The notes under the pieces were generated by a model. That model searched no databases. It was given only the letters and a program-made list of their open reading frames with translations, and was not told where the DNA came from. The translations under genes were made by a program, and so were the position numbers. 64,000 nt of DNA, taken from NCBI GenBank assembly GCA_030390025.1, contig CM059432.1, positions 83,826,001 to 83,890,000 on the forward strand, given 5' to 3'. Origin of the DNA: Squalus acanthias. Taxonomy: Eukaryota. Shown here in pieces: positions 5,146-55,925 of this stretch. The first letter of the stretch is position 1. Each line of letters begins with the position of its first letter.

Positions 5146-5665
5146 AGGAAGGTGTGATTTGTGTTGGGCAGTAGCAGGCATTAGCGAATCAACAGCCTGT
5201 TTTACACACCACCCGATTTTCTTTTCCATTGACCTCGCTATTGCCCATTTTGCGCTGCGACCCAAGACGACTTTCACCCCCTAAGCAATAGCCACTTACT
5301 TGACTTGCAGGATACATTACTGCTGAGCATGATTCGGTCCTCACCTAATGCTCACACGTAGATACTTCCAGCACGCGGGAGGGGGGTCACTAGATAGTGA
5401 TCAGAACCCACTTTTTTCATCCCTAATCTAATTTTAGCATGAGTATTGCTGAATCTGCTAGTTCAGCACAGACTAGAAATCGAACTTGTGATTTTCCTGC
5501 ACACCTAAGCTCACCACTGTCAAGCTATTGAAGAAGTTACTGATCTGTTTGGAACTTCTCTCATAACTATTCATTCACCTAAAATGTAACGTATAGAATC
5601 ATCAAAACACAGAAACAGAAATTTGGTCCATCAAGTCTGCACCAATGTTTTTCTCCACATGAGCA

Positions 5666-7422: not shown

Positions 7423-8132
7423 GGGCTGGATTTTCATTGACCCATGGAGGTGGGTTTGGAGGCGTGTGGGGGGTTAAAATTGCGAAAACTGGCAGGCGGG
7501 CACAAGCCCGACTCCATCCCACCTCCACGCAATTTTCATTAAATCGTGTCTGCTGGGCCCGACTCCGTCCCGCCTCTTAGAGGCGGGATAGGGTGTTCAG
7601 GCCCTTAACAAGCACTAAATTGCCTCTATAATGCCATTTTGAAAGGCCTTTGTGATTTTAACCCTTTTTCTACGTGAAGCACGCCTGTTCTGAACCACGA
7701 ATGTGAAACCTGGTGGGAGCACATTTGGATAGCTGATGCTGGCTGGCTGGCTGGCTATTGGGATGCATATATGGATGGCTATGTGGATGGATGCATATAT
7801 GGATGGATGGGGAGGAGACATATCTGGGAGTGGTGATGTAAAAATATCTGGGAGCAGACTTAGGGCTGCTGCTGCTCATTTTGCATCCAGGTCCTCTCAC
7901 AGCAAAGGCCAGGCAGTCTTTGCAGACCTTCAATGCAGCAGCAATGATGACATCATCAGAGGCGACTTTCAGACTGAAAACACTAATTGGTTCATGGGTT
8001 CCCACATGCTGGAACTCAATTGCCCAATTAGGTGAAAATTGCATCAATCTCCCACATCCAATTGCAGTCGGGTGGATAACACAAAAAGTGGATGACACGA
8101 CCCCAACCCGCCCCAGTATCAAAATCCAGCCC
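7423..8132. mobile_element. Non-autonomous Harbinger (MITE), derivative of the 28891-33220 family
   Basis: Perfect 12-bp TIR GGGCTGGATTTT/AAAATCCAGCCC, 3-bp TSD AAA; both subterminal regions resemble the full-length element. Confidence 0.9.
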
Positions 8133-13574: not shown

Positions 13575-13899
13575 CACTGTTCCCTCTAAGGTGTGCGAGT
13601 GCGCGTGTGCACTGATCCTAAACTCGCACACAGTTGATTTGAAATGCCGTGCAGTGAGCTGGACAGTAGCTGGGGTGGGGGAGGGGCCCAATATACAATG
13701 GCCCCGGGAATCCAGACAGACTCATTGGCGAGTCTTGCGACCTCAGAGCCGATCCCAATTGCAGCTCTTGAAGTGTGTGTTCCAATGGTTGATGGGGGGT
13801 AGAGAGAGAAAAAGACTGGGGGGGCGGGGGAGAGAGAGAGAGAGAGACTGGGGGGGAGAGAGAGACTGGGGGGGAGAGAGAGAGAGAGAGAGAGACGGG

Positions 13900-13931
<32 letters not shown>

Positions 13932-26720: not shown

Positions 26721-29418
26721 GCTGGATGGCCTCTTTAGTCTTCAGAGCTGCTTTCACTGAGTGCAACAGCCGCCCCGCTCAGATTGTGGTTAAAAAGCCA
26801 TTTGTGTCTTAGTGACGTAATAGAACACCAATTTGCATAAATTCATGAGGCGCCTGCCTGCTTTAGATGGCCGTCTCATCCGCCTGCAGAACCTTGCAGG
26901 TTAAAATCAGAAATGGCGGAAAAGGGTCAAATTCTGAGCAAATATGTAACCTGGGGGTAAGGGTTAATATTAACCCAGGAGTGTTGTCTGGGACTATAGG
27001 GAGTGAAATTTAAATATCATATGAAAATTCCTTCTACCTCCCCAAAGTTATAGGACACAGGAGTATCACAAACAAAGGAAGGTGCAACTCAGAGCCAGGC
27101 AGAGAAGGTGGCCAAGAAATTTGACTATAAATTTACACTGTCTCATGTAATAAATCACTAAATTAAAATAAAGTAGTAAATGCCTATTTTAAAATAGCTG
27201 AGAAAAGAACATCACACGAATGCATTAAGAGTCTCAAGGTGTAATTTCAAGGCCAATGTGTTTCTGCTCCTCCTAGCCCCACAAAAAATAAATCAAAAAA
27301 GACTTGGGGCCATTTTACGACGTTACCGCTGTAGACAAATGGGCGGAGCATGTGCCACGCACCATCCGCCCATTTGTCCCTCAAAATTTGAATCAAGGTC
27401 CTATGTATGTCACAGGATCCTGATTTGCATATTAAAAGTTGTACCGCCTAAACAGGCAATGCACCGGCCGCCCATTGAAAGGCCTCTTCCAAGATGTTGG
27501 CAGCCGGACTGCCAGCATAAGCAAGGCAATAAGTGACCCAACTCTATTTTGGGGTCACTTGCATTCTATTTATGCTGGATGGGCCAGCTTTAAATCAGGC
27601 CCATGTTATGCTGTTTTTTAAAATTGCTGAATTTGAATTTCTGGATTTTTTTTGGAGCAAAAACGACTTTGAATTAACAGGAACAGAATATATATGTTTA
27701 CTACTGTTGTATCTCCTGTCAATCATTCTGGTGTCTTTAGGCAAAGATAAATCAGAAAAGAAAATGCAAAAAGTTGTCGCACGTTGTAGAATTTAAATAG
27801 TATTTAGTGCAGTAAGACTGGAAATATTCCAATATATAATATTTTGTTAGTGGTCTCTGAGACTCTGAGAATGGAATGAGGAAAATGCAGAAAAACATTA
27901 CCAGGTGCTACTGCTACTTCTGAAAATTACAATATTTTATCAAGTCTCAAGCACACTTCTAATTGTGCCTGCACCAGTAAAATAATAATTTTATTGTAAT
28001 AATAACACTTATGTGGTCTGGAAACTAAATAAATGCCATAGTCCGCCATTTATTAAGGTATCAATGCATCCACACTATTTCTCAAGAAAATGGTTTGTTT
28101 AGTAACTGAAGATTTGCTACATTGTTCTTCTGCCTGTATTCAGTCTCTGTATGGTACTAGTGCTATGTTTATGACCTGTCTGACCTAACTGAAGTTGAAA
28201 GACCAGCTCTCATTCCATCTGGCAGCCAACAACAAATTAGAACATATATTTACTTTTTTTTGTCTTTATTTTGTGTTGAAAAATGTATACTAACCTCATG
28301 GCTTACTGTGAATTTAGTATTTACTTACTCCGGACAGGTTTAGGTACCTCTTAAAAGACGAGAGAGCATGTATGTGTTTTAATAGGGTGCAGTAAAGCAC
28401 CCTCTGTATTTAATAATCATTAAAACAAAATATAAAATAAGAACTTAAGTGAATAGTAAAATTATTTAATTAAAATACTGCAGGAGTACTACTGGCAAAT
28501 TATGCCGTAAGAAGACACTGAAATATTATTCTAATCTCTACTATGACAGATCCAATCTCTTTCAGGGAAATGAAAATCATATTTCAATGTCCTCTCTCAA
28601 TATAGCTTTTCCTGCCCTCTGATTTCCCAGTGATCCAGTTCATTTTTAACCCCACTGTTATTTGTAATTTTCTATTCTGACTTGCTTTTTGAAATTCCTG
28701 CCCTCTTTTATTTATGAAGTCCTGATGGGGAGACATAGGCCTCATGAGAAAACAAACAGGACATTTGATTGAAGACTAACATATTTTTATTCAGGAACTG
28801 TTAAGCAAAGTCCACAAAATTACCCAACATTGCTTGCGTTAGTTTGATTTCTATTTTCAAAATTTCATGAAAGCAGACTATAGAAAATAAGGGCTGGATT
28901 TTGCCAGACCTGAGGAAGTGGGTTTGGAGGCGTGTGAGGTGTTAAAATTGCAAAAAAATGGCGACGGCTCCGATCCTGCCTCCAGCCCGCCTCTGATCAA
29001 TTTTCCCAAAAGCGGCCATTCAGACCCTGTTTCGATCCCACCTCCAAGAGGCGGGATAGGCACTTAAGGCCATTTAACAAGCACTTAATTGCCTCTATAA
29101 TGCCATTTTGAGAGGCCTTTGTAACTTTAACACATTTCCCCCGTGCTGCACGTCTCCTCTGGAACACGCCAGTTAATCCTGGCGGCGTCACAAGTGGATG
29201 GCTTACTAACAGCTGCAGCTCCACCATTAAAAAGGAATTTTCAACAATGATCATTTGCAGGTGGTAGAACTTTGTTTTCTCAGGTCTGGGAGAACTTTTT
29301 GCAGGCCTACTCATTGTGGAAGTTTTGAGGCTGAGATCCATCTCCAGTGTGACCTCCTGGGAAACCCCTCTCCCCACCTTGACTGAGCGCTTCCTCAACT
29401 GAGGTATATACCAGAAGC

Positions 29419-30669
29419 ATGGGAACCATTTATTTCCTTTCCTCCTGGATATCAGATTCAGATGAAGACCAGCCGCGGCAGCAGCAGCACCCAGAATGAC
29501 AGCAGCACCAACAGCAGGAGCAACAACAGGAGCGCCAAGCTGCTGCTTACCCACCTGAAGCTCCACAGGCCAGAAAACGCCAGTGCATGGAAGCATGTCG
29601 CCGCAGGAGATACCCCCAAAACAGGTTTTATAGACAGAGGATGAGCTACCTCAACATGACTGAGCAGCAGTGCCAAAGGAGGCTCAGACTTTCACGAGAG
29701 GTAGTGGGTGACAGCAAGACCTGGAGCCCAGAGGAGCGGGTGGACACCCCTTACCAGTGGCCGTCAAAGTCACCACCGCACTCAACTTTTTTGCTTCAGG
29801 CTCATTCCAGGGATCAACAGCAGACATCAGCGACATCTCCCAGGCGGGCGTACACACTTGCATCATGCAGCTAACCGATGCCCTCTTTGCCATTGCGCAG
29901 AATTACATCAACTTCTCCAAGGATCAAGCAAGTGTAACCGTGCGTGCGGTTGCATTTGTTAATCTGGCAGGCTTTCCAAGGGTGCAGTTGCGTTGTTGAC
30001 TGCACACATGTGGCCCTTAAGGCACCCCATCACAATCCAGGTATGTTTGTCAACCGCAAGGGCTTCCACTCCCTCAATGTGCAGCTGGTGTGTGACCACA
30101 GAAGGAAATTTTGCATGTTTGCGCCAAGTACCCTGGCAGTTGCCATGACTCTTTTATCCCGTGCCAGTCTAGTGTGCCTCCGCTCTTCAGTCTGCCAGAC
30201 CAACATTTTGGATGGCTACTTGGAGACAAGGGCTATCCCCTGAAGACGTGGCTGATGACGCTGTTGAGGAGGCCATTCAACGCAGCTGAGGAGCGCTACA
30301 ACTCCAGCCACATTTCCACCAGATCCATAATCGAGCAAACCATCGGCTTGCTGAAGATGCAATTTAGATGCCTTGATAGATCAGGTGGAGCCCTGCAGTA
30401 CTCAACAGCCAGGGTCTCCAGAATCGTCGTAGTCTGCTGTGCACTTCACAACATGGCACAGCATCGTGGCTTGCAGCTGCCTGAGGTACAAGTGGCTCAT
30501 CACATAGCCTCCTCAGATGAGGATGAGAATGATGATGAGGAGGAGGAGGAGGAGGAGAGAGAGCGACAACGAACAACTTGCGGAGGCGCATCAACCAGTG
30601 GCAGCAGCATGCGAGCACATTGCTGCCCAGGAGGCAAGTGGCGCACTCATTTTGGCCAGATTTGCTTAG
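29419..30669 (+). pseudogene. Harbinger DDE transposase (HARBI1-like), with frameshifts and a stop
   Basis: MGTIYFLSSW start; [78 protein letters not shown] spread over three frames. Confidence 0.93.
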
Positions 30670-30927
30670 CCTGCCCAATCAAACACTTTTGCCTCGCACC
30701 TTCTTACCAGAGCATCGACAATGGCCAAGAACCTGCGGATTCCTATCACTCTGACCACCATACTGACAATTCCAAGTCGCCCTGAGCCCTCAATGTGGAA
30801 GTCCCATTAGCGAAATGACACAGCCCACAACTTCAACAGTTTGCCATCAAGTTTTTTTATCACATAAAGTCACGGATGGCTTTTCAAAAATAAACACAAC
30901 AGAACACCCAAGTGTCTACCCTTGTGA

Positions 30928-32935
30928 CTACTTGTGCATTATCTCCCTCTTATGCGTGCTCCTATGTGGTGCTTCCCCTGTGGCTTCAGCAGATGTGGAG
31001 GCCCCTTGCTCACTTTCTTGCTGCTCCTGCCTCGACACCTTTGGCGGGCGTCCTCTGGGGTTGCGAGCCTGTGAGGGCTCGGCAACAGTCTGCTGCTCCT
31101 GCGGCTGTGCAGGGGCTGAGACGCCGATCTCAGTTGGGTGTGGACTCTGGTGGGGCTCTGACCGAGGGCTCTGCAGTGGCATGGTCGTGTGAGCACTTGG
31201 AGAGGAGCTCCCACTTCCTTGTTCTCTGCCACCAACATCCCTCTCATGGGTCAGCCCCACTTCAGAGCTAGCAAGTGGCTTGACAGCACCTTGCTGCACT
31301 TCAGGGGGGCCATGAGGACCTGTTTCTGCACTGGAAGTCCTACTCCAGAGGACTTCCATGAAGGTCTGGTTTCTCTGCTTAATAGCTGACCATCGCTCCT
31401 CAAGAGATGTCAGTCTATTCTGAACAATGACCATGTTTTCAAGACCCTGGCGACTTAGCTCCTCCATGGCCGTGGCCATCCTCTCCTCTACCATAGCCAT
31501 CCTCTCCTCTATGGTAGCCAACCTTACCACGGAGGTAGCCATCCTTTCCACGGAGGTTGCCATCCTTTCCGTGGTGATGCGTCCATACGCCAATGCCTCC
31601 ACAAAGGCTCTGCTCATGTTAGCGATGGACTCCTCCATTCGCTCCACACTCGCAGCGACCCTGGAGACAAAACCTGACAGAGACTCCTGTACCTGTTACT
31701 GGAGTTCCAGCACCGCTCTCCTTCTGGATGGACCCGGAGGCACAGGGTTGACATGCAGCTGAGCCGAGCTGGGAGAGTCCTGCACCCTCCGATGAGGACT
31801 CTCCACTGCTGTCCCTGTCTCCACCATCTGCTGATACTCACTTGTGAGCTGTGATACACCAGGTGACAACACTACTCTATCTCCCGAAGGTCCCACCGAG
31901 GTGTGAGTGTCTGCGCTGGTGCTGGGTGCGCTTAATTCTGCTGACGCTGCGCCCTCAGAGGCTGCAGCTTCCTCTGAGGAGTCTGGGGGCTCAGGCTGTT
32001 CCACCTGGACAGTGGGGAGGGGGGCTGTCGATGGTCCTGTGGGGGAGTAAAGGAAAGAGTTAGACATGTGAGATAAACTTTGCATGCACATTGAATTGTG
32101 CAGATGATCATAAGTCAATCTGTTAGAGCATTAGAATCAATATCAGTCACTCATGCAATGTCAATGAGAGAGATGAAAAACTATTCTGTCACCAGCTTGC
32201 TCTGATGTGCCCGTCTGTCCGTCCCCCACTTGCGCATCCTCCTCGACTCCCACGATCTCCAGGGCCGCCTCCTCTGCAGTGGTGAGCTGGGCTATTGAGG
32301 GTGGCCCTGCTCCGGTCCTCGCCCTCTCCCTCTTATTGTAGGCTCTCTTTTCCTGCAATGAGGGACACAAGTGGAGTTTGAGTGAGAATGAAGGAGTGAG
32401 TGTAGAGAATCCATAGCATAGATGCTTAGAAGGACACAAAGATGGAGTGAGGTCCCAAGACCAAGGGCACTCCCTGAGTGTTGTAAGTTGTTGTCATAGC
32501 ATCACAGTGATAGGGAGCGTGAGGGCTGCATAGTCGAATAGTTAAGTGAATGTGAACATACAGAGAGAGGGAATGGTTAAGGGTTCAGGGATGTAGGGGT
32601 CAAGTGGGATGTGGAGGAGGAGGTTGACAAAGCAGAGTGCTGGTGATGAGAGGCGATGGAGATCAGATTGAGGGTCATGTGGATGGAATACTCACTTTTC
32701 CTGTGCGGAGAAGTTCATGAAACGTCTTTCTGCACTGCAGCCAGGTTCTGCTGCACATTGAAATGGCATTCACCTCCTGTGCCACTTGCAGCCACACAGC
32801 TTTGGTCTGTTGGGGAGGCTTTTTCCTCCCTGAAGAAGGAAACAGCACTTCCTTATTCGCTCTTGCTCCCTCTACCAGAGCTTGGAGGGAGTTCTCATCG
32901 AATCGGGGTGCACACTTTGGTCTGCTGCTAGACAT
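30928..32935 (-). pseudogene. Harbinger Myb/SANT-like DNA-binding protein gene, 3 exons (32696-32935, 32193-32352, 30928-32036), one in-frame TAA at 31696-31698
   Basis: APRF..L..LV..LFP..W..VA.EVN..RTW.QCRK.F motif; GT-AG sites give phases 0 and 1. It has 502 codons apart from one stop, where the second copy has GAA. Confidence 0.9.
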
Positions 32936-34689
32936 GGTTGGAGCACGAATCCCTCAGAAGTATAATGCAAAAGTTGTAAGGCAGAAAAAGAACCAAGGCT
33001 GCTTGCAGGCCTTAAATGCAGCTGCATAGATGACGTCATCAGAGACGAGTTTCAGCACCAAAATACTCATTGGGCCAGGGGTTCCCACACGCTGGAAATC
33101 AAGTGCCGAATCAGGGGAAAATCGGTCAATTGTCACGCCTCACATTGGAGGGGGGGGGGGTCGTGACCTGCCGACCACCTGACTCGCCCCCAGCCCGCCC
33201 CTAATGACAAAATCCAGCACAAAGTGTCATGCTGAATTGGTATTTTGCTAAATATGTGTATTAATGTTATGGACAATATGCTAATTAATACTGGTAATTG
33301 TTTGATTTTTTTAATGCTTTGTTTATATATTGGTATGATATTAGCAAATATTGAGATTTTTTTTACATTTGAATGCACTGAATGCTAAAATTAGCTATAG
33401 TAGTTCAAGAGAAATGACAATTAAACAGGTACAGTATTAAGCGGATGAGAAAAAACATGTCAGTTTAATGGCACTTTTTTATTTCAATGTCAATGATTGT
33501 TTTTCAACAGAAATTTGTTGTAACTGAACACATTTCTATTGAAAATTAAACAATGAAACAGCAATAAAGAGAACCTCTGTCATGAATTTTATAAAATACA
33601 TAATGTGATAACTTATTATTGGAAATATTAATAAAACACTTTTACGGATTAAAAAATACAAAATATTGGGGTAAATAAACTCATCGATTAGCAGCAGTCG
33701 TGGTGGGGAAAGAGGGATGGAATGATTGCAACAGGGTTCGGTTGGTAGAAATAGGAAACTTTATTAGTATATATGTATATTTCCTAAAAAACTGAAAATC
33801 AGACAAAAATCTTAAATACAAAGAAGGGAAATCATTCATTATTATTTGTTTTAAAAGTATGATTACTTATGTGAAGTACATGTTTTGACAATACAAATGT
33901 AACTGAGGTGCCATATGTGCTTGCAATAACTTCATTATTCTTATTTTTTTAAATCTGCTCTAGTTCACCTTTTTGGTTTTTTTTGCTGTACACATTTCTT
34001 CAAGTCAAATCTGCAATGTTCATTCCCAACAGTAGTACTATCACACTGAAGCTGTAGCAAAACCAGAAACATCTGTATATAACTTAACCAGCAGGCTTTG
34101 TCACTCCACAGTGATAAATCGAGTACTGGCCATCACTCATCATTCCAGAATTAAAGTTGATTTGAACTAAAAATGAATCATCACAAATAAAACTGTGTGT
34201 TATCATCTTTGTATTACTTATTTGCTGTTATCTCGGCCATCAACTAAAAATATAGGCTCAGAGTGCGGGTTTGGAGGCGGATCCGCTGTCAAAATCACAA
34301 AGATTGCCTCGTATGGGGTCTCATATGGGGTTCTCCGATCGCGGGGGTTGGGCTAGGCAGGGATCCTGGATCCAGGAGGTTGGTATAAAGGCACGTACCT
34401 CCTGGAAGCAGCAGTCCTCGCCTTGCTGTAACTGTCGGGTTTTACGAGGTGTGTAAAACCCGACCAGCTACAGTTAAAAACAAAATGGAGGTTCAAGAGG
34501 CTTTCAGCTTCATTAAAATATTTTTAATTGACGTCCAGCCTACTGGCAGCGGAATGGCTGCCCGCCCCCGTCCGCCACCACCCACCCCCTCCCCTCCACC
34601 CCCCCCCCATCGTTCCGCCTCCGTTAAAACCGGAAGTGGGTGGGTTTGAGGCGGGTTCAGGTTGGGATTACGATTTTTAACAATTTAAA

Positions 34690-36607: not shown

Positions 36608-39600
36608 TATAGAGTCATAGAGTTATACAACACAGAAAGAGGCCCTTCAGCCCATCGTGTCTGCGCCGGACATCAAGCCCTATCTATTCTAATCCCATTT
36701 TCCAGCACTTGGTCCGTAGCCTTGTATGCTATGGCATTTCAATTGCTCATCTAAATGCTTCTTGAATGTTGTGAGGGTTCCTGCCTCTACCACCCTTTCA
36801 GGCAGTGAGTTCCAGATTCCAACCATCCTCTGGGTGAAAAGGTTTTTCCTCAAATCCCCTCTAAACCTCCTGCCCCTTACCTTGAAACTATGCCCCCTGG
36901 TTATTGACCCCTCTACTAAGGGGAAAAGTTCCTTTCTATCTACCCTATCTTTGCCCCTCATAATTTTGTACACCTCAATCAGGTCCCCCCTCAGCCTTCT
37001 CAGCTCCAAGGAAAACAACCCCAGCCTGTCCAGTCTCTCTTCATAGCTGAAACGCTCCAGCCCAGGTAACATCCTGGTGAATCTCCTCTGCACCCTCTCC
37101 AATGCAATCACATCCTTCCTATAATGTGGCGACCAGAACTGCATGCAGTATTCCAGCTGTGGCCTAACTAGCGTTTTGTACAGGTCCATCATAACCTCCC
37201 TGCTCTTATATTCTATGCCTCGGCTAATGAAGGCAAGTATCCCATATGCCTCCTTAACCACCTTATCTACCTGTCCTGTTGCCTTCAGGGATCTATGTAC
37301 ATGCAAACCAAGGTCCCTCTGATCCTCTGTCCTTCCTAGGGTCCTACCATTCATTGTGTATTCCCTTGCCTTGTTAGTCCTCCCAAAATGCATCACCTCA
37401 CACTTTTCAGGGTTAAATTCCATTTGCCACTGTTCTGCCCATTTGACCAACCTGTCTATATCATCCTGTAGCCTGAGGCTTCCCTCCTCGCTATTTACCA
37501 CTCCACCAATTTTCGTGTCATCTGCGAACTTACTGATCATACCTCCTACATTCATATCTAAATCATTAATGTACACTACAAACAGCAAGGGACCCAGCAC
37601 CAATCCCTGCGGTACACCACTGGACACAGGCTTCCAGTCACAAAAACAACCTTCGACCATCACCCTCTGCCTCCTGCCACTAAGCCAATTTTGGATCCAA
37701 TGTGCCAAATTTCCCTGGATCCCATGGGCTCTTACCTTCCTGACCAGTTTCCCATGTGGGACTTTGTCAAAAGCCTTACTGAAGTCCATGTAGACTACAT
37801 CAACTGCACTACCCTCATCCACACACCTAGTCACCCCCTCGAAAAATTCAATCAAATTGGTTAGACATGATCTCCCCCTGACAAAGCCATGCTGACTATT
37901 CTTGATTAATCCTTGGCTCTCCAAGTGGAGACTAATTCTGTCCTTCAGAATTTTTTCCAATAATTTCCCTACCACTGATGTTAGGCTCACTGGCCTGTAA
38001 TTCCCTGGTTTATCCCTACTACCCTTCTTGAATAATGGTACTACGTTAGCTGTCCTCCAGTCCTCTGGCACCTCACCTGTGGCCAGAGAGGTTCTGAAAA
38101 TTTGTGTCAGAGCCCCTGCAATCTCCTCCCTTGCCTCACACAGCAGCCTGGGATACATCTCGTCTGGGCCTGGGGATTTATCACTTTTAAGCCCACTAAA
38201 ACCGTTAGTACCTCCTCCCTCTCAATGCTAATTTGTTCAAGTATATCACAATCCCCCTGCCTGATTTCTATGCCTACATCGTCCTTCTCATAGTGAACAC
38301 AGATGCAAAATATTCATTTAAAACCTCACCTACATCTTCCGGCTCTACACACAGATTGCCACTTTGGTCCCTAATGGGCCCTACTCTTTCCCTGGTTATC
38401 CTCTTGCCCTTAATATACTTATAAAACACCTTGGGATTTTCCTTTATTTTGCCCGCCAGTGTTTTTTCATGCCCCCTCTTCGCTCTCCTAATTTCTTTTT
38501 TAAGTACCCCCCTGCACTTTCTATACTCCTCTAGGGCTTCCACTGTTTTTAGTCCTTTGTATCTGCCAAAAGCCTCCCTTTTTTTCCTAATCCATTCTTG
38601 TATATCCCTTGACATCCAGGGTTCCCTGGACTTGTTGGTCCCACCCTTGACCTTTATGGGAACATGTTGGCGCTGTACTCTCTCTATTTCCTTTCTGAAT
38701 GACTCCCACTGCTCTGATGTGGATTTTCCTACAAGTAGCTGATCCCAGTCCACTTTGGCCAGATCCTGCCTTATCATATTAAAATTGGCCTTCCCCCAAT
38801 TTAGAACCTTTATTTCCGGTCCATCTTTCTTCTTTTCCATGACTACCTTAAATCTCACCGAATTATGGTCACTGTCACCAAAATGCTCTCCTACTGACAT
38901 TTCTACCACTTGCCCGGCTACATTCCCTAGAATTAGGTCCAGTACCGCCCCCTCTCTTGTAGGACTTTCTACATGCTGGCTCAAAAAGCTCTCCTGGATG
39001 CACTTTAAGAATTCCGCACCCTCTAAGCCTTTCACACTCTGACTATCCCAGTTAATATTGGGGAAGTTGAAATCCCCTACTATTATTACCCTATTATTTC
39101 TATACTTCTCTGAGATTTGCCTACATATCTGTTCCTCTATCTCCCCCTGACTGTTTGGGGGCCTATAGTACACTCCCAGCAAAGTGCTTGCTCCCTTTTT
39201 GTTTTTAAGTTCTACCCATATGGCCTCATTAGAGGAACCTGCTAAGATATCATCCCTCCTTACTGCAGTAATTGACTCCTTGATTAATATTGCGACACCC
39301 CCTCCTCTTTTACACCCCCCTCTGTCTCGGAATATTGAGCTGCCAGTCCTGCCCCTCCCTCAACCATGTCTCTGTGGTAGCAACAATATCATACTCCCAT
39401 GTGTTCATCAACACCTTCAATTCATCTGCCTTACTCGCAAGACTCCTTGTATTAAAATAAATGCCATCCAGCCTTGCCATACTCCCTTGTGCCGTTACAT
39501 ATTTGCTCTGCCTTCCAGACTGACTTGTTTTTTCCTCTATATTTGGCTGTGCATCACCCCCTACTATAGCTCCACTCCGTATCCCATCCCCCTGCCAAGT

Positions 39601-40315
39601 TAGTTTAAACCCCCCCCCCCCCACCAGCACTAGCAAACCTCCCGCAAGGATGTTGGTCCCGTTCCGGTTCAGGTGCAACCCGTCCGACTTGTACAGGTCC
39701 CACCTTCCCCAGAAACAGACCCAGTGATCCAGGAAACTAAAGCCATCCCTCCTGCACCAACTCTTTAGCCACGCATTCATCTGCTCTATCCTTCTATTCC
39801 TATACTCACTAGCACGTGGCACCAGGAGTAATCCAGAGATTACAACCTTTGAGGTCCTGCTTTTTAATCTGCTACCTAGCTCCCTAAATTCTTGTTGCAG
39901 GACCTCATCCCTCTTTCTACCTATGTCGTTGGTACCAATGTGAACCACGACCTCTGACTGTTTGCCCTCCCCCTTCAGAATGCCCTGCAGCCGTTCAGTG
40001 ACATCCTTGACCCTGGCACCAGGGAGGCAACATACCATCCTGGAGTCATGTCTGCGGCCGCAGAAACACCTGTCTGCACCCCTCACTATTGAGTCTCCTA
40101 CCACTATTGCCCTTCCACTCTTACTCCTCCCTCCTTGTGCAGCTGAGCCACCCACAGTGCCGTGAACTTGGCTCTGGCTGCACTCCCCAGAGGAACCGTC
40201 ACTTTCACCGTTTTCCAACACAGAAAAACGGTTCAGTGAGATGCACTCTGGGGCTTTCCTGACTACCTGCCTGCCCCCCTTCTTCTGACTGGTGGTCTCC
40301 CATTCCCTCTCTGAC
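36608..40315 (-). mobile_element. CR1 LINE, 5'-truncated within ORF1; RT ORF of 489 aa uninterrupted
   Basis: Esterase ORF 39310-40317, endonuclease ORF 38274-39182, RT ORF 36689-38158; frameshifts between them; ctctatga-type tail. Confidence 0.94.
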
Positions 40316-40730
40316 AAAATATGAGTAGATTTTTGTTTTTCAGTGTTTATTATTGCTGATTTTTGCTCATTATTTTCACTGTTGTTTCAGGTGCACTACT
40401 TTCAGGTCTTTTGGCCCTTTGAGTTTTGTCAAAAAAGTTAATTTTGGAGTAAATATTTTAATATTACTCACCTCACTTGTCTAGCTGTGTTCATTCAAAT
40501 ACTTCAAATGACAGCCATTAATTCTGGTAATTACAAGTGCTGGAATTAAAAGCAAATAACCATTCTATGCAGTAAATTTATCTTACTAGTTAGAAGAATG
40601 TTCAGTAAAATCTTGTAAAATCATTACATGTAAAGTATATTCTACAAATTGAAACAATGTTTAACTTTAGTTGTTAGCAAACACTACAGTACTTCCAACA
40701 TTTTTCAGTTGGTGGGTTGGGTGGGGTGGC

Positions 40731-42129: not shown

Positions 42130-43465
42130 TAACTATCCAAAGTTCTGAAAGAGGAAATATTCTGTGATTTAATGTTTCTCCGTGTTCTTTCTTTCTAATA
42201 CATTGTGTAGTAAAGTTAATGACAATCAGTCTTCTTACTGAACATAAGTAAAGGGGTGGTGCCACCATATTCGGAAGCTTTTGGATTCTGGAACAATTTG
42301 TTCCAAAAACTCTTCAACAAAGCCATTATGCTGGTGGCTGAGGAACCATTCACACTGTAACAGGCATCACAGGGCTGATTTTCTGCTCCTGGCTAAGTTT
42401 AGGCTTTATGTGCCTAGCTCCTGGTACAACGATAGCCAGTGCAACATTGAGCTGTGCAGTTTGGCCTTGTGCAGGGAACTACATCAATCAGGCATTCGAG
42501 AAGCCTGGCCAACAGGTAACATTTTAAAAGATGCACACACTTAAGGCATGAAGCTACATATGGGGACAAATATTGTTTCAGCCTTTATAAAACTTCAATA
42601 TGAATTTCAATATTTGTCAGCTTTTGCCAAGGTTGGTGAGAGGATGGGAAGAAGTGTCTGACAACAATGAAGTGAAAGGAAATCTAACGTGAAAGCACAC
42701 AATGGCATTTTATGGACTAGTGAAGAGGTGCTACAACATTTGTCTCACTGCTTAATGGCTGGCAAAATGGACCTGCAGCTGCATGAGGAGGGTGCGAGGT
42801 AGGATGCCTAGTTTGGCAATTCAAAGGATCCTCCCCCAGAGGTCAGCAATGCACGATTCCTTGCAGTAGATAGTGACCAAGCCCAACTCTGTGCAAATTA
42901 CCTCCAGTACTGGGAACAGACGCATAGGAAGATGGTACACTTTAAGGATTCTGGCAAGGTAAGACTACCCAACAGCATTGTGGTACTACCATCCCCACAA
43001 GAACCATAGCAGTTCAAGGAGAAGACCCACCATCACATTTTGAAAAAAAGTATCATGTATTGGGTAGACAATCCAAGATTGCATGCATAAAGTGTTGCCT
43101 ATCAACCTGTTCCACATTTACTGCTTGCCCATTCCAAACCCTCAAACAGAGCAACAGCATTGCATCTCATCCATACCCATACTGTAGTAGGGCACACTTT
43201 CAAGATGTTGCATACAATTCAAACTCTTGCCACATTAACACCGTCCAAGGTCATAACACCTCAAGTCATTGTAAAATAACCAAGCTGCATGATGCATAGT
43301 CACTTATTGCCATCAGTGTGGCATGCAGGTTGTGCACATGTATAACATTGTGGTTGTGGTCCTTTAGCTGTTAGCATCTCTAGACTACTTTTCTGCTTGT
43401 ACAACAAGATGGCACATTGACTGCATAATGTGACTTGCAGAAAGGTCTCCCTACACACACTTAAC

Positions 43466-46400
43466 GGGCTCGATTATAATTCCCGAGGCGGGTTGGAGTC
43501 AGGTTGCATGGTGGGCTGGTTCCGGAGCCACTTCCGGCGGGATCAGTGCAGATGTCCGATTTTGATTCAATGAGCTTGTTGATTTCAATGAGGCGCGCTG
43601 GCCAGTCCAATGAGTGCGATCGGGTCGACTGGCCGCCTCTGATGACGTCATCATAGCTGCTGTTTTTATAGCTGCCATCCAGCCTGAGCCTTTCTCTTGT
43701 GGATTCCTGGACCCATTGAAATTGATTTAGACGCAATGACTTTTTCCAGAGGCAAGGCAGCTCTTCGTTTTAATGATGACTCCCTCCATGTTCTTGTGGA
43801 TGCTGTCAGAGGGCGCAGGATGATTTTCTTCCCTCCTGATGGCCGGAGGAAGCCTCCTCAGCAGACCAAGGCAGCCTGGCTGCGCATTGCTGAGGAGGTC
43901 AGCACAAGGTCCATATGTTCATGCTCATGGATCCAGTACAGGAAACGCTTTAATGATCTTGTGCGAACATCAAAAGTGAGTATTCCCATCACACTTACCT
44001 TCAATCTGCTTCCCTTCTCTTCTCATCACCAGCACTCTGCTTTGTAAGCCTGCTCCTTCACATCCACCTTACCCTTATTTCCCTTGCACCCTTACCTATC
44101 CATCTCCGTCTCTGCACTGAATCATTTCAGCATCCTGCCTATGCACCCCTTAGACTTGCTCTCACTGTCATGCAGTGACAACAACTAACAACGCACAGGG
44201 AGCTAGCTTCCTCTTGGCACCTTACCCCATCCTCATCTCCCTCAAAGCTTCTATGGTAGGGATTATTCACACTCACTCCATCACTGTGGCTGAAACACCG
44301 CTTGTGTCCCTCCTTGCAGGAAAAGATAGCCCACAATAAGAGGGCGAGAGCAATGACTGGAGGAGGAACACCTACCCTAGCCACATTGACCAGTGCTGGG
44401 GAGGCTGCAAACGAGCTTGTTGGTGGTGGCGAGGACCTGGAAGTGGGCATTGGAGAGACGGGCACACTAGAGGAAGGTGGTGACATATAGAGTTTCATCC
44501 CTCTCAGAATGCAATGGCATATGATGTTCATAGAGAATTGCATTGTATCAACTGCTCAAAAGGATGTATCTGCTACATCAATATCAGATGTCTAAATCAA
44601 GCCTTTACTCTCCCACAGGACCATCGAGCGCCCCCCTCCCCACGATCCAGTACGAAGAGCCAGACAACTCCTCAGAGGAACCTGAAGCCTCAGAGGGAGG
44701 AGCGTCACCAGGACTCAGTGCACCCAGCACCAGCGCAGCAACGCACACCTCGGTGGGGCTCTCGCAAGTTAGAGTAGTGTTGCCACCTGGTCTATCACAG
44801 CGCACAAGTGAGCATCAGCAGATGGTGGAGTCAGCGATAGCGGTGGAGAGTCCTCGGCGGAGGTCGCAGGACTCTCCTAGCTCTGCTGAGCTGCATGTAG
44901 ACGCTGTGCCTCTGGGGCCATCCAGAAAAAGAGCGTCACGGGAAATACAGGAACAAGTGCAGTTGTCTCTGGAAGGGTTTGCCTCCAGGGTTAGTGCGAG
45001 TGTGGAGAGAATGGAGGAGTCCGTCTCTAAAACCAGCACTGCCGTGGTGGAGGCAATGGCGCATGAACGCACCACCATGGATAGGATGGCAACCTCCGTG
45101 GAAAGGCTGGCTACCTCAGTGGAAAGGATGGCTACGGCCATGGAGGAAATAAGTCGCCAGAGTCAGGAAAACATGGTGACTGTTCAAAATAGAATGTCAT
45201 CTCTGGAGGAGCGATGGGCAGCTATTGAGCAGAAAGACCAGAGCTTCATGGACGTCCTTTTGATGAGGACTGCCAGTGCAGATACGGGTCCTCATGGTCC
45301 CCCTGAAGTGCAGCAAGGTGCTCTCCAGCCACTTGCCAACACTGAGGTGCGGCTGACCCATGAGAGGGATGTTGTTGGCAGGACAGAAGGAAGTGTGGGC
45401 TCCTCTCAAAGTGCTCACACGACTATGCCACTGCGGAGCCTTCGGTCAGAGACCCACTTTGCGGAGACAGCTGAGATGGCCGTTTCAGCTCCTGCACAAC
45501 CGCAGGAAGAGCAGACTGTTGAAGAGCCCTCCCAGGCTCCCAAATGCAGAGGACGACCGCCAAAGGCGTCTAAGCAGGCGCAGTATCCTAGTCAGCAAGG
45601 TGCCTCTACATCTGCTGAAGCCACAGGGGAAGCACCACATAGAAGCACACAGATTAAGCACCTATAGTCACAAGGGAGTCACTTGGGTGATTTATCTTTT
45701 TCTTCTGACTGTGGCTGGTTTAAGAGTAAGCTTATGCTAATGTGGCATGGCTGTGTGCATACCCTGGTTGACAGGCAGCAGTGAACTGGAGGGATGCTGC
45801 ATTGGTCACAACAGGGCATGCATGGCGGCCCTCGTCCTTTTCCTACTCCTCTTCCCAGGAAGATCTGCGCTGAGCCACGCGGCTGCTACTCCTCCGATTA
45901 TGAGGACCAGGATGAGAGGGCATAAATGTTTCCCATCCCCTTGCTATAGATTTCATTTGAGGCAACAAGCTTGCAAGCGTACAGTTGAAGTGGCCTGAAA
46001 TTATTCCATTCATGTCACACTGCAGATAGGTGTCAGCTTGAACAGTCACAAGGTCAGTAGATGTGCAAAATCTTATCCCATACCTACAACAGCAAAGTTG
46101 TTGCATTTGAATGTCAGCCATGTTTCAGGGGCACTTTTAAAGTGCTCCACCAATGCATACAAATCATGTCCTCCAACAACTCGTCTCCTTGAACCTGGCC
46201 TGTTTCTGACAAGTCGGGAAACAGGAGCCAGAAGCCAGAAGCACAAAAATGGGAAACCACTATGAAAATAGGATTAGCAAGGCAGTTAACAGGCTTTTAA
46301 CTGCCTTAACTACCTGTCCCACCGGTTCCAGTTGGGTCAGTTTGGGAGCGGCTGAACAGACACTCACGAAAATCGGGTGGGGGCGGTATGGAGGCGGGTT

Positions 46401-46482
46401 GGGTGTCTGAAGCCATTTTTTCCAATTTTTGCTACAGACCTGCCTCCAAACCTGCCTCCTCAGGGCTATTAAAATCGAGCCC
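43466..46482. mobile_element. Harbinger deletion derivative (3.0 kb) retaining the Myb/SANT gene but lacking the transposase core
   Basis: 15-bp TIR GGGCTCGATTATAAT / ATTAAAATCGAGCCC (1 mismatch); only a decayed transposase N-terminus (MGNIYALSSW, ATG at 45936, minus) remains. Confidence 0.88.
43736..45667 (+). CDS. Harbinger Myb/SANT-like protein, intact spliced ORF of 482 aa (exons 43736-43975, 44320-44479, 44619-45667)
   Basis: Exons 1 and 2 (240 and 160 nt) and splice phases are identical to the 30928-32935 copy; canonical GT-AG; no stops or frameshifts. Confidence 0.85.
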
Positions 46483-46519: not shown

Positions 46520-49500
46520 AATTGGGCTATCCTAGATTGGGTATTGTGCAAAGAGAAGGGGTTAATTAATAATCTAGTTGTGCGGGGTCCTTAAGGGAAG
46601 AATGACCATAACATGATAGAATTCTTCATTAAGATGGAAAGTGAAGAAGTCCAGTCTGAAACTAGGGTCCTAAATCCAAACAAAGAAAACTACGAAGGTA
46701 TGAGGAGTGAGTTGGCTATGATAGATTGGGGAGCTTCATTAAAAGGCATGATGGTGGATAGGCAATGGCTAATATTTAAGGAACGAATACATGAATTGCA
46801 ACAGTTATACATTCCTTTCTGGCGCAAAAACACAAAAGGAAAAGCAGCCCAACCATGGCTAACAAAAGAAATTAAGGATAGTATTAGATCAAAGAGGAGT
46901 CATATAGGCCCAAAAATTTGTGTTGATACGCGAGAGTACGCACTGTGTACTCTCGCGTATTCTGTCTCCAATTGCCGGTTTTCTGCATGCACTGCGCATG
47001 CGCTGAAAACCGGCACTTGGTGAATGGAAAAGGGGGCGGTTCCTAGGTGAACCGCGTGCGCGCTACAGGCTGCGCGCATGCAGTGCACTTAGTGGTTTCA
47101 ACGCGCAGGTAAGTATGGAAGATTTTACACATAAAAAAAGGAGGAGTAAGACCCACTTTTAACAAGGTAAGTAGTGAATTAAGTATTATTTAGAATTTTT
47201 TTTAACAGGTATATCTTTTTTAGAGACTTTAAAGACAGGTAAGTTTATTTTTATAACTTTTTAAAAGACTTTAAATTTTTTCAAAAATTTAATTTTTTAT
47301 TTAAAATGGTTAATTTATTTAACTATACTTATTTTATTAATGTGATGGTTTTTTTAAAAATTTAATTGAGGTTTAGCTGTTCTTTTGGGGGGCTATAGTA
47401 TTCATAGCTTTCACAGCACTTATGTGAAAGTTATGAATGGAAGATGGTGTGCTGCCATTGGCTCTAACTGAGTCACGTGATCCCACAGCTCGCACGAATT
47501 AACTGCGCCTGTGGGATACGCAAGCCCAGCACAGCAGCTGTCCAGAACATCAAGTTCGTGCAAGCTGGAACTGAAAAAGCCAACGCGCAGTGAGAGATCG
47601 CGGGGAAGCCTTACCCTCGCACGAAGGCTTCCTCACGAATTTTTGGGCCAATAAGTTGTCAGAAAGAGTAGCAAGCCTGAGGATTGGGAACAGTTTAGAA
47701 TTCAGCAAAAAAGGACCAAGAGATTGATTAAGAGGGGAAAAATAGAATGAGAGTAAACTTGCAAGGAACATAAAAGCGGACTGTAAAAGCTTCTACAATT
47801 ATGTAAAAAAGAAAAAGATTAGTGAAGACAAATGTAGGTCCCTTACAGTCAGAAATGGGAGAATTTATAATGGGGAACAAGGAAATGGCAGAGCAATTAA
47901 ACAAATACTTTGGTTCTGTCTTCATGGAAGAGGACACAAATAACTTCCCAGAAATGCTAGGGAACCAAGGGTCTAGTGAGAAGGAGGAATTAAAGGAAAT
48001 TAGTATTAGTAAAAAAAATAGTGCTGGAGAAATTAAGGTGACTGAAAGCCGATAAATCTCCAGGGCCTAATCTGCATCCCAGAGTACTAAAAGAGGTAGC
48101 CATGGAAATAGTGGATGCATTGGTTGTCATCTTTCAAAATTCTATAGATTATGGAACAGTTCCTGCAGATTGGAGGGTGGCAAATGTAACCCCACTATTT
48201 AAAAAAGGAGGCTAGAGAGAAAACCGGGAACTACAGACTGGTTAGCCTAACATCAGTAGTAGGGAAAATGCTAGAGTCTATTATAAAGGATGTGATAACA
48301 AGACACTTAGAAAATATCAACGGGATTAGACAAAGTCAATATGGATTTATGAAAGGGAAATCATGTTTGACAAACCTACTGGAGTTTTTTGAGGATGTAA
48401 CTGGTAGAATAGATAAGGGAGAACCAGTGGATGTGGTGTATTTGGATTTTCAGAAGGCCTTTGATAAAGTCCCACGTAAGAGATTAGTGTGCAAAATTAA
48501 AGCACATGGGATTGGGGGTAATATACTGGCATGGATTGAAAATTGGTTAACAGACAGGAAACAGAGAGTAGGAATAAATGGGTCTTTTTCGAGGTGGCAG
48601 GCGGTGACTAGGGGGGTACCGCAGGGATCAGTGCTTGGGCCCCAGCTATTCACAATATATATCAATGATTTGGATGAGGGAACCTAATGTAATATTTCCA
48701 AGTTTGCTGACGACACGAAACTAGGAGGGTTTGTGAGTTGTGAGGAGGATGCAAAGAGACTTCAAGGCGGTTTAGACAAGTTGAGTGAGTGGGCAAATAC
48801 ATGGCAGATGCAATATAATGTGGATAAATGTGAAGTTATCCACTTCGGTAGGAAAAAGAGAAAGGCAGAGTATTATTTAAATGGTGATAGATTGGGAAAT
48901 GTTGATGTACAAAGGAACCTGGGTGTACTTGTATACCAGTCACTGAAAGCAAACATGCAGGTGCAGCAAGCAGTTAGGAAGGCAAATGGTATGTTGGCCT
49001 TCATTTCAAGAGGATTTGAGTACAGGAGCAAGGATGTCTTACTACAGTTATACAGGGCCTTGGTGAGACCACACCTGGAGTACTGTGTGCAGTTTTGGTC
49101 TCCTTACCTAAGAAAAGATATACTTGCCATAGAGGGAGTGCAGCGAAGGTTCACCAGACTGATTCCTGGGATGGCAGGACTGTCGTATGAGGAGAGATTG
49201 GGTTGATTAGGCCTGTATTCACTAGAGTTTAGAAGAATGAGAGGGGATCTCATTGAAACGCATAAAATTCTGACAGGGCTAGACAGACTGGATGCAGGGA
49301 GGATGTTTCCCCTGGCTGGGGGGTCTAGAACAAGGGGTCACAGTCTCAGGATATGGGGTAGGACATTTAGGACTGAGATGAGGAGAAATTTCTTCACTGA
49401 GAGGGTGGTGAACCTGTGGCATTCTCTACCACAGAAGGCTATGGAGGCCAAGTCACTGAATATATTTAAGAAGGAGATAGATAGATCTCTAGACACAAAA

Positions 49501-53700: not shown

Positions 53701-55925
53701 GGCAGGGCAGAGACAGCAATGCTACTGAGGTGGAAGTAGGCAGTCTTGGTGATAGAGAGGGTATGGAGTCGGAAGCTCAGCTCATGATCAAAAAGGACGC
53801 CGAGTTTGCGTACTGTCTGGTTTAGCCTCAGACTGTCGCCAAGGAGAGGGATTGAGTCGGTGGCTAGGATACGGAGTTTGTGGTGGGGACGAAAGACAAT
53901 GGCTTTGATCTTCCCAATAGTTAATTGGAGGAAATTTCTGCTCTACAAATACTGGATGTCGGACAAGCAGTGTGTAAAATCAATGGCAGTGGAGGAGTTG
54001 AGGGAGGTGGTGGTGACGTAGAGCTGGGTGTCGTCAGCATACATGTGAAACCTGATGTGTTTTTGGACGATGTTGCTGAGGGGCAGCTTGTAGATATGAA
54101 ATAGGAGGGGGACAAGGATAGCTCCTTGGGGGACTCTAGCAGTAACGGTGTGGGAGTGGGAAGAGAAGCCTCTGCAGGTGATTCTCTGGCTACAACTGGA
54201 TAGATAAGAATAGAAGCAGGCGAGTGTAGTCCCATCCAGCTAGATGACGGTGGAGAGATATTAGAGGAGGATGGTGTGGTCAATCATGTCAAAGGCTGCA
54301 GACAGGTCAAGAAGGATGGGGAGGGATAGTTTACAGTCACATAGGATGTCATTTGTGATTTTGATGAGGGCCATTTCAGTGCTGTGGCAGCAGCTGAAAC
54401 CTGATTGGAGGGGTTCAAACATGGAGGGCTGGATTTTCATAGGGCCGTGGAGGCGGGTTTGGAGGCGTGTGGGGGGTTAAAATTGCGAAAAGTGGCGGGC
54501 GGACCTGATTCCGCCTCCACGCAATTTTGATAAAATCGTGTGCGGTGTTCCCGACTCCGTCCCGCCTCCAAGAGGCGGGAGAGGCCATTAAAGCCCTTAA
54601 TAAGCCCTAAATTGGCTCTGTAATGCCATTTTGAAATGTTTTAGCTAGTTTAACCCTTTTCCCACGTGAAGCACGCCTGATGTGAAACACGCCAGTGAAA
54701 CCTGGCGGGAGCACAAGTGGATAGCTGACTATCAGCTGCCGGTCCACTATTACAGCGGAGATGTGATGAAGGTAGTAGTAGTATTAGGTCTGAAAGTCGC
54801 CTCTGATGCTGCTGCATTGAATGTCTTCAGAGGCTGCCTGGCCTTTGCTGTGAGAGGACCTGGATGCAAAAAAAAAATTCTCTCTCTCTCTCACTCAGCT
54901 GCTGCTCATTTTGCATCCAGGTCCACTCACAGCAAAGGTCAGGCAGTCTCTGAAGACCTTCAATGCAGCAGCAATGATGACATCATCAGAGGCGACTTTC
55001 AGACTGAAACCACTAATTGGTTCATGGGTTCCCACATGCTGGAACTCAATTGCCCAATTAGGTGAAAATTGCATCAATCTCCCACATCCAATTGCAGTCG
55101 GGTGGATAACACGAAATGCAGATGACACGACCCCAACCCGCCCAGTATCAAAATCCAGCCCGGAGTGTGGGAAAGATGAGCAGGGATTTAGGAGGCGACA
55201 ACATGTTCCAGGACTTTGGAGAGGAAAGGGAGGTTGGAGATGGGGTGGTAGTTTGCAAGGACGGAGGGGTCAAGGATTGTTAATTGAGGAGAGGGGAGAT
55301 GACGGCAGATTTGATGGGGAGGGGAACAATACCTGAAGAGAGGGAACTGTTAACAATATCAACTAACATGAGGGCCAAGAAGGGAAGCTAGGTGGTCAGC
55401 AGCTTGGTGGGAATAGGATTGAGGGAGCAGGAGGTTTGTCTCATAGACCAGATGAGTTCGGAGATGGCATGAGGGGAGATAGGAGAGAAATTAGAGAAAG
55501 ATGCGAGTTCAGGGCTAGGGCAGGGGGGAACCTTAGGGAAAGTTCTGTTTGGTGGACTAGGGAAGGGAGGGAAGCAGCAGAAGCAGCTGAATGGATGGTC
55601 TCAATCTTAGTGGCATAGAAGTCCATGAGCTCCTCGCACTTGTTATTGGAGGTGAGGGTGGAGGACGCAGGGGAGAGGGGTATAAGAAGATGGTTTTAGT
55701 GGAGAAGGGAAGCCAGGGTTTATCTTTGTATTCCAGAATGATCCTGGAATAGTGCGCTGTTTTGGCAGAGGAGAGTAGGACCCGATAGTGCTTTATGTGG
55801 TCCAGCCAGATCTGGTGATGCATGGCTAAACCAGTTGTCCACCATAAATGTTCAAATCAGCGTCCATTGGACTTAAGGGAGCAGAGATGGGGGCCGTACC
55901 GGGGGAACGACTTGGGTGAGAGAGA
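53700..55925 (-). mobile_element. L2-type LINE ORF2 fragment split by a Harbinger MITE
   Basis: Reverse-strand [15 protein letters not shown] and WLDHIKHYR motifs. Confidence 0.85.
54426..55161. mobile_element. Non-autonomous Harbinger (MITE), sister of 7423-8132
   Basis: Perfect TIR GGGCTGGATTTT, TSD GGA (54423-54425 / 55162-55164); the right ~250 bp is nearly identical to 7870-8132. Confidence 0.92.

What the first reader, a model, noticed from the sequence alone, without database searches (positions are those of the whole stretch)
43466..46482. Transposase-less Harbinger that keeps a fully intact, spliced Myb/SANT gene
Seen: both TIRs are present. The transposase is deleted except for a stop-riddled N-terminal stub (ATG 45936, minus). 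The 3-exon Myb/SANT gene (482 aa) has no lesion and canonical splice sites. Known: Harbinger transposition needs both proteins, and Harbinger Myb genes have been domesticated in vertebrates (NAIF1, MSANTD family). Inference: this is either a Myb-only semi-autonomous family that supplies its own end-binding protein and borrows transposase in trans, or an incipient domesticated gene antisense within an EYA1 intron.
Basis: partly seen in the sequence, partly recalled or inferred. Interest (0 to 1): 0.7.

Follow-up and report, generated by a model that had tools for sequence, protein, structure and literature searches.

The report
Decaying Myb-only shark Harbinger copy
This is one old copy of a multi-copy jumping-gene family, in what is likely a shark genome, whose members share one deletion of the cutting enzyme but keep the DNA-binding helper gene; this copy's helper gene still reads open but carries changes at conserved positions and is likely decaying, so it is probably ordinary.

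Summary
The anatomy is real: 15-bp TIRs at 43466/46482, an open 3-exon GT-AG Myb/SANT gene of 482 codons, and no transposase core. The deletion junction is at 45878/45879, not 45700-45800. It removes about 1,015 nt relative to a full-length two-gene Harbinger in the same window (28891-33220) and leaves both N- and C-terminal stubs.

The deletion is not unique. Eleven listed contigs, diverged from this copy, bridge the same junction in runs of five organisms; depth suggests a few hundred copies.

This copy does not look domesticated. Its private coding changes are 15 non-synonymous to 2 synonymous, and several hit conserved Myb columns (R63C, C68Y, P10L). At its roughly 2.4% private divergence, an open frame survives by chance 3-7% of the time.

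One point stays open: premature stops in the transposase stubs look family-wide while the Myb frame stayed open. That means either recombination with full-length elements (favoured) or family-level selection.

Myb-only Harbinger variants are published for sea kraits and Caenorhabditis inopinata, and this scan noted this kind of element at eight or more other loci of this genome. Verdict: new member of a known kind; interest 0.25.

The parts
43466..43480 (+). Left terminal inverted repeat (15 bp); preceded by AAC
   Evidence: pair I9, 93% complementary; flanks
43736..43975 (+). Myb/SANT gene exon 1 (80 codons, Myb_DNA-bind_5 domain) with P10L, E29M, L31F, R63C, C68Y departures from conserved columns
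44320..44479 (+). Myb/SANT gene exon 2 (donor at 44480 is co-linear with element B; an in-frame alternative donor at 44477 also exists)
44619..45667 (+). Myb/SANT gene exon 3 (low-complexity, with a 21-nt repeat at 45071-45133), stop at 45665-45667
45732..45878 (-). C-terminal transposase remnant: acidic tail, one premature TAG at 45845-45843, natural stop at 45734-45732 aligned to the natural stop of element B
   Evidence: local score 83; 0 of 1000 shuffles reach it, maximum 77
45878..45879 (.). Deletion junction; about 1,015 nt of transposase core (B 29478-30492) missing; shared with many other copies
   Evidence: bridging contigs, counted
45879..45936 (-). N-terminal transposase stub (ATG 45936), stops at 45900-45898 and 45888-45886
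46468..46482 (-). Right terminal inverted repeat; followed by ATC
28891..33220 (-). Element B, used as reference: full-length two-gene Harbinger in the opposite orientation; Myb gene 32935-30928 with one internal TAA; transposase about 29419-30669 (+) broken by stops and frameshifts; DDE_Tnp_4 at 85.9 bits
8780..18130 (-). Exons of the EYA-family host gene; element A lies upstream of them, in an inferred long intron, with its Myb gene antisense

Best explanation
The element is one copy of a multi-copy Harbinger family whose members share a roughly 1-kb deletion of the transposase core; it was likely moved by transposase from full-length relatives, and its Myb/SANT frame is open but likely drifting without selection since insertion. 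Shown: TIRs, the open gene, the junction, its sharing by diverged copies, and the mostly non-synonymous private changes. Inferred: (a) mobilisation in trans by a full-length sister family; (b) the master element's Myb gene was open because it was inherited from, or renewed by recombination with, full-length elements, not because it was selected in the transposase-less lineage; (c) this copy escaped stops and frameshifts by chance.
For: Shared junction: 9 of 32 listed pieces (32 of 15,894 laid records were listed) bridge 45878/45879 with at least 31 nt on each side. They come from runs of organisms A, C, D and F and carry 8-24 other letters each (count). Two more of 32 listed pieces bridge it (organisms A and G). 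No joint or loose end was listed at the junction (24 of 479 loose ends shown). Depth at 45839 divided by the median depth of listed pieces gives 589, 475, 440 and 64 in the four runs; the tool warns that depth is not a copy number, so this is an order of magnitude only. Neutral drift of this copy: of the coding positions where at least 99% of depth in the organism-A run shows another letter, 15 are non-synonymous and 2 synonymous (P = 0.18 under dN/dS 1; 0.016 under 0.5; 0.0008 under 0.3). In the fully listed stretch, 3 non-synonymous changes in about 112 sites (2.7%) match 9 changes in 381 non-coding nt (2.4%). Five of 12 departures from conserved Myb columns score negative in BLOSUM62, against 0 of 11 in element B (P = 0.037); C68 is C in 20 of 21 homologs. 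Chance survival of an open gene is 3-7% at 2.5% divergence and 6-13% at 2% (simulation). Signs of exchange between subfamilies: A-versus-B identity is uneven (exon 1 56-65%, intron 1 75%, exon 3 82-85%, ends 56-63%). Depth at the A-type Myb 3' end (45673) is one third to one sixth of that at the C-stub, so the same scar likely sits beside more than one Myb end. Precedent: PMC8437027, PMC13668399.
Against: The three premature stub stops (45900, 45888, 45845) have no alternative letter at 60% share or more in any of 4 runs (all 18 rows shown). They therefore look family-wide, while the Myb frame has none (2 of 20 codons against 0 of 482, Fisher P = 0.0015). Passive carriage alone does not explain this; it needs recombinational renewal, which I could not test directly without a genome. 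The rows are the best-supported 40 of 722 and favour sites conserved across subfamilies, which inflates the non-synonymous share. The unbiased coding stretch holds only 3 private changes. By plain count, A (12) and B (11) depart from conserved columns equally often. No full-length element with A's exact termini was seen. Chance survival of a single copy is still only a few percent.
Confidence: 0.66

Rival explanations
1. True semi-autonomous lineage: after the transposase died, master elements were selected to keep a working Myb/SANT protein that binds their own ends and recruits borrowed transposase. This copy is a now-decaying offspring of such masters.
For: Stub stops appear shared by most junction-bearing copies while the Myb frame is open. 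A-versus-B dN/dS is 0.20 in exon 1, 0.38 in exon 2 and 0.51 overall. A's termini differ from B's and from the MITEs', so a matching Myb protein could be needed. PMC13668399 proposes, but states it has not demonstrated, the same division of labour.
Against: The A-versus-B dN/dS cannot separate selection before the deletion from selection after it. Mosaic identity and mixed Myb 3' ends allow a swapped-in gene. DNA-transposon proteins act in trans, so selection on a carried helper gene is expected to be weak (established knowledge, recalled). Earlier notes on this genome report recombination of the scar between families (AI notes, not checked by me on genome data).
Confidence: 0.26
2. Incipient domestication: the host keeps this particular Myb gene, antisense in an EYA intron, as a new gene like NAIF1 or MSANTD.
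For: Open 482-codon frame with GT-AG introns. The insertion is shared with organism B: piece 26 spans 43096-43519, with 54 nt inside the element. A related Myb protein is conserved as a 90%-identity cluster across four ray species, so the wider family may have been domesticated elsewhere.
Against: Private changes are 15 non-synonymous to 2 synonymous. Radical changes fall at conserved domain columns. Both TIRs are still present. The flank divergence to organism B (7 of 307 and 25 of about 420 letters) is similar to the copy's own divergence from its family, so sharing needs no selection.
Confidence: 0.04
3. A one-off internally deleted copy of a full-length element, intact by chance.
For: Chance survival of the frame is plausible.
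Against: Eleven listed, diverged contigs from runs of five organisms cross the same junction, four of them in one run (X9).
Confidence: 0.02

Closest known systems
Harbinger-Snek solo-ORF variants, sea kraits Laticauda (PMC8437027; passages and part 1 of 2 of Results read)
   Same: Vertebrate Harbinger with multi-copy variants that encode only the Myb-like protein (452 intact DNA-binding-only copies in L. colubrina), attributed to large deletions.
   Different: That family is young and horizontally acquired, and also has transposase-only variants. Here the copies are older and diverged, the junction is shared across several organisms, and the stubs carry stops. Sequence relatedness was not tested.
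Harbinger-1M_cIno and -2M_cIno, Caenorhabditis inopinata (PMC13668399; abstract, one Results section and Discussion read)
   Same: TIR-bearing elements that keep the MADF/Myb gene without a transposase, are amplified more than DDE-bearing copies, and are proposed to be complemented in trans.
   Different: Nematode family with TWA duplications and a documented recent insertion. No recent activity is shown here, and the 3-bp flanks in this window are variable (AAA, GGA, ATT, AAC/ATC).
Element B (window 28891-33220) and elasmobranch Myb-like proteins XP_067827223.1, XP_067830712.1 (Heptranchias perlo) and XP_067897782.1 (Heterodontus francisci)
   Same: Same 3-exon Myb gene layout in B; full-length alignment to XP_067827223.1 at 39%.
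   Different: B has the whole transposase and different termini, and is 76% identical over the Myb region; it is a relative, not the direct parent.
NAIF1 and MSANTD1-4, domesticated Harbinger Myb genes (PMC9392472; passages read)
   Same: Myb/SANT domain of Harbinger origin.
   Different: Those genes are syntenic across jawed vertebrates, expressed and under negative selection. This copy keeps its TIRs, belongs to a repeat family and shows no sign of negative selection since insertion.

Membership tests
PIF/Harbinger (PHIS) superfamily | Terminal inverted repeats | tested here: met
   15 bp, 14 of 15 complementary
PIF/Harbinger (PHIS) superfamily | Myb/SANT DNA-binding protein gene | tested here: met
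   PF13873 at 25.5 bits, cut-off 21.7; ESM Atlas top hits PF13873
PIF/Harbinger (PHIS) superfamily, autonomous element | DDE transposase gene | tested here: not met
   Core deleted in A; present but broken in relative B (PF13359, 85.9 bits). A is a derivative, not an autonomous member.
PIF/Harbinger (PHIS) superfamily | Short target-site duplication | tested here: inconclusive
   A has AAC/ATC (2 of 3 match); related short elements have AAA/AAA and GGA/GGA; B has TAA/AAA. No empty site was available.
PHIS subgroups of Han et al. 2015 (NuwaI CWG, Pangu ANT, NuwaII 5-bp) | Group-specific target sequence | tested here: inconclusive
   The GGG start of the TIR fits the NuwaI description (PMC4482050 passages), but none of the flanks read here is CWG; no transposase tree was built.
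Myb-only (solo-ORF) Harbinger derivative | Many copies sharing loss of the transposase with ends kept | tested here: met
   9 of 32 and 2 of 32 listed pieces bridge the junction
Myb-only (solo-ORF) Harbinger derivative | Mobilised in trans by a full-length partner with compatible ends | not testable with these tools
   No genome held; needs a genome census and a transposition assay
Semi-autonomous element (helper gene under selection) | Purifying selection on Myb after transposase loss | tested here: inconclusive
   Shared stub stops beside an open Myb frame, but mosaic divergence allows a swapped-in gene
Domesticated Harbinger Myb gene (NAIF1/MSANTD type) | dN/dS below 1 at the locus | tested here: not met
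   15 non-synonymous to 2 synonymous private changes (row selection biased); radical changes at conserved columns
Domesticated Harbinger Myb gene (NAIF1/MSANTD type) | Same locus kept across distant species | tested here: inconclusive
   Left end shared with one other organism only (piece 26); the state of its reading frame is unknown
Domesticated Harbinger Myb gene (NAIF1/MSANTD type) | Spliced expression | tested here: inconclusive
   Only contigs from runs guessed to be RNA were available

The most novel reading that the evidence does not exclude
An old elasmobranch Harbinger lineage lost its transposase, let the stubs fill with stops, and still kept its Myb/SANT gene under purifying selection while amplifying to hundreds of copies across several shark species: a helper-only transposon that pays for borrowed transposase by supplying the end-binding subunit.
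Probability: 0.26. Interest if true: 0.55.

Novelty: new member of a known kind. Interest (0 to 1): 0.25.

Why it matters
As it stands, it adds a shark example to the short list of Myb-only Harbinger families and warns that such copies can be annotated as intact host Myb genes. If family-level selection on the Myb gene were shown, it would be rare evidence that a non-catalytic subunit of a two-protein DNA transposon can be maintained in a lineage without its enzyme. PMC13668399 proposes this but says it has not demonstrated it.

Tried and rejected
Genome census: not possible, no assembly held.

Word-index protein searches with exon 3 and exon 1 (longer proteins) found nothing at E 0.001 or better. 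The full HMMER scan did find 27 relatives, so those blanks mean nothing. The ESM Atlas search with exon 3 gave only leads under 0.9. The findings look-up by sequence was empty.

Expression: no RNA holder was listed. In two runs guessed to be RNA (X17, X18) no joint at 43975/44320 or 44479/44619 appeared among the 15 of 175 joints shown, and one contig crosses the exon 1 donor unspliced (piece 10). These are contigs from many copies and count neither for nor against expression.

Left-end piece 17 of run X2 has only 30 nt inside the element, one short of the tool's 31-nt rule, so it is not counted as bridging.

Rejected: the junction position 45700-45800; element B as direct parent (ends only 56-63% alike); A-versus-B dN/dS of 0.51 as evidence for selection on this copy (it sums the whole history of both lineages); summed depth over exon 3 (1.7-4.5 x 10^5 over most of it in X2) as a count of this family (it includes other subfamilies, as the loose ends at 45648 show).

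Literature: a search for harbinger + myb + non-autonomous + shark returned 0 papers. The listings showed no paper on a shark Myb-only family; most listed papers were seen as title and abstract start only, and subscription journals and Repbase were not searched. No supplements were read; those of PMC8437027 and PMC13668399 may hold selection tests on solo-ORF copies.

Full report
Observation. The element (A) runs from 43466 to 46482 between 15-bp inverted repeats, 14 of 15 complementary, with AAC and ATC as flanking triplets. Exons 43736-43975, 44320-44479 and 44619-45667, joined at GT-AG introns, give an open frame of 482 codons. Exon 1 passes the Pfam cut-off for Myb_DNA-bind_5 (25.5 bits against 21.7). 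A scan of 1.84 billion proteins gave 27 relatives. I looked up names for 8 of them; all 8 are from sharks or rays, which is my basis for calling the host a likely shark. One of them (XP_067827223.1) aligns across all three exons at 39%. EYA-family exons lie on the minus strand from about 18116 down to 8780 (structure hits EYA2 and EYA3).

A reference element in the same window. A self-comparison showed a second Harbinger (B, 28891-33220, opposite orientation), 76% identical over the Myb region. It has the same three-exon Myb gene with one internal stop, and a DDE_Tnp_4 transposase (85.9 bits) broken by stops and frameshifts. Aligning A to B puts a 1,015-nt gap at A 45878/45879 (B 29478-30492). 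A therefore keeps 20 N-terminal codons with two stops, joined to a 48-codon C-terminal tail with one premature stop and the natural stop (tail-to-B score 83; 0 of 1000 shuffles reached it).

The deletion is shared. No assembly was held, so I used public runs and laid 8 of the 24 listed (85% likeness; all contigs). In one search, 9 of the 32 listed pieces (of 15,894 laid) bridge the junction with at least 31 nt on each side. They come from organisms A, C, D and F, four of them from one run, and carry 8-24 other letters each. Two of the 32 listed pieces also bridge it (organisms A and G). No joint or loose end was listed there (24 of 479 loose ends shown). Depth at 45839 over the median depth of listed pieces is 589, 475, 440 and 64. 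The tool states that summed depth is not a copy number, so I read this only as tens to hundreds of copies. One contig of organism B crosses the left end (43096-43519), so the insertion predates that split.

This copy looks neutral. At coding positions where at least 99% of depth in the organism-A run shows another letter, 15 changes are non-synonymous and 2 synonymous (from 22 coding rows and 5, one in both; 9 rows under 99% were left out). This fits dN/dS of 1 (P = 0.18) and not 0.3 (P = 0.0008). Caveat: one search showed only the best-supported 40 of 722 rows, which favours conserved sites. In the fully listed stretch, 3 non-synonymous changes in about 112 sites (2.7%) match 9 changes in 381 non-coding nt (2.4%), but the numbers are small. 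Against 21 homologs (B and 20 of the 27 hits), A departs from 12 conserved columns and B from 11. By count they are alike, but 5 of A's changes (P10L, R63C, C68Y, E107G, L111N) score negative in BLOSUM62 and none of B's does (P = 0.037). Simulated neutral decay leaves the gene free of stops, frameshifts and splice damage in 6-13% of trials at 2% divergence, 3-7% at 2.5% and 1-5% at 3% (assumed transition bias 2, CpG rate x4, 0.03-0.08 indels per substitution). Among 100-500 copies, 3-65 would be open by chance.

The open question is at family level. None of the three premature stub stops (45900, 45888, 45845) shows another letter at 60% share or more in any of four runs (all 18 rows shown), so they are probably older than the amplification. 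Two stops in 20 stub codons against none in 482 Myb codons gives P = 0.0015. Either the Myb gene was selected after the transposase died, or an old scar was joined to fresher Myb halves by recombination with full-length elements. A-versus-B dN/dS (0.20, 0.38 and 0.67 by exon) cannot decide, as it sums both lineages. Two results lean to recombination. Identity to B is uneven: exon 1 56-65%, intron 1 75%, exon 3 82-85%, ends 56-63%. Depth at A's own Myb 3' end is one third to one sixth of that at the scar in all four runs, though poor laying of this T-rich stretch could also lower it. I had listed a chimera as a rival before seeing earlier notes. Those notes (AI-written, unchecked) report recombination of the scar in this genome and moved my odds towards it; I could not repeat their genome analyses.

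How it most likely works. Shown: ends, open gene, shared junction, non-synonymous drift. From the literature: the Myb-like protein binds the TIRs and brings in the transposase, and both are needed (passages of PMC9392472 and PMC9179366). Inferred: master copies without transposase were cut and pasted by enzyme from full-length sisters, carried the Myb gene as a passenger, and left this copy in an EYA intron, where it has drifted since (0.66). Family-level selection on Myb gets 0.26, domestication of this locus 0.04, a one-off deletion 0.02.

Comparison with what is known. Multi-copy Myb-only variants are described in a vertebrate (Harbinger-Snek: 452 intact DNA-binding-only copies in Laticauda colubrina; PMC8437027, passages and part 1 of 2 of Results). 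They are also described in Caenorhabditis inopinata (PMC13668399, abstract and sections 8 and 12), where supply in trans is called hypothetical. Domesticated NAIF1 and MSANTD genes are syntenic across jawed vertebrates with dN/dS below 1 (PMC9392472, 12 of 21 passages), which this locus does not match. The PHIS subgroup stays open (PMC4482050, 12 of 27 passages). PMC9179366 (12 of 26 passages) found no Harbingers in elephant shark. PMC5741667 (9 of 9 passages) added nothing on Myb-only elements. Searches showed no paper on a shark Myb-only family; no supplements were read. This scan has noted the same kind of element at eight or more other loci of this genome and once in another genome.

Verdict. 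Real feature, partly misdescribed; a new member of a known kind; interest 0.25. The boldest reading not excluded, a helper-only lineage with its Myb gene under selection, has probability 0.26 and would deserve 0.55.

Noticed in passing
window 28891-33220 (minus): Full-length two-gene Harbinger (element B) with one stop in its Myb gene and a broken DDE transposase; used here as reference.
   Followed up: yes
window 7423-8132, 54426-55161, 59200-59964: Three 710-765 bp non-coding elements with the same type of TIR and 3-bp flanks (AAA, GGA, probably ATT). The first two match the ends of B better than those of A; the third gave no BLAST match to either. The second holds an inner palindrome at 54788-55004.
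   Followed up: partly
window 43736-45667 against 32935-30928: Synonymous divergence between the two Myb genes is 0.69 in exon 1, 0.48 in exon 2 and 0.22 in exon 3, while the introns differ by 0.24 and 0.32. Intron 1 is more alike than the synonymous sites on both sides of it; this is unexplained beyond mosaicism.
   Followed up: partly
proteins P0007 and P0028-P0035: A Myb protein related to this family forms one 90%-identity cluster across Hypanus, Hemitrygon and two Mobula species, which suggests a truly domesticated Harbinger Myb gene in rays.
   Followed up: no
window 42922-43404: The left flank of the element is itself a low-copy repeat (depth 350-970 against about 75 next to it in run X2); not identified.
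   Followed up: no
window 46926-46960 and 46965-47023: Two adjacent palindromes (arms of 17 and 22 nt) at the start of a very high-depth repeat that interrupts a LINE-like fragment right of the element.
   Followed up: no
window 13750-14700: Long purine-rich simple repeat that gives several spurious long ORFs.
   Followed up: no
window 36689-40386 (minus), 168-4895 (plus), 5663-6544 (plus): Long open frames that read like reverse-transcriptase and endonuclease pieces of retrotransposons; labels recalled, not tested.
   Followed up: no
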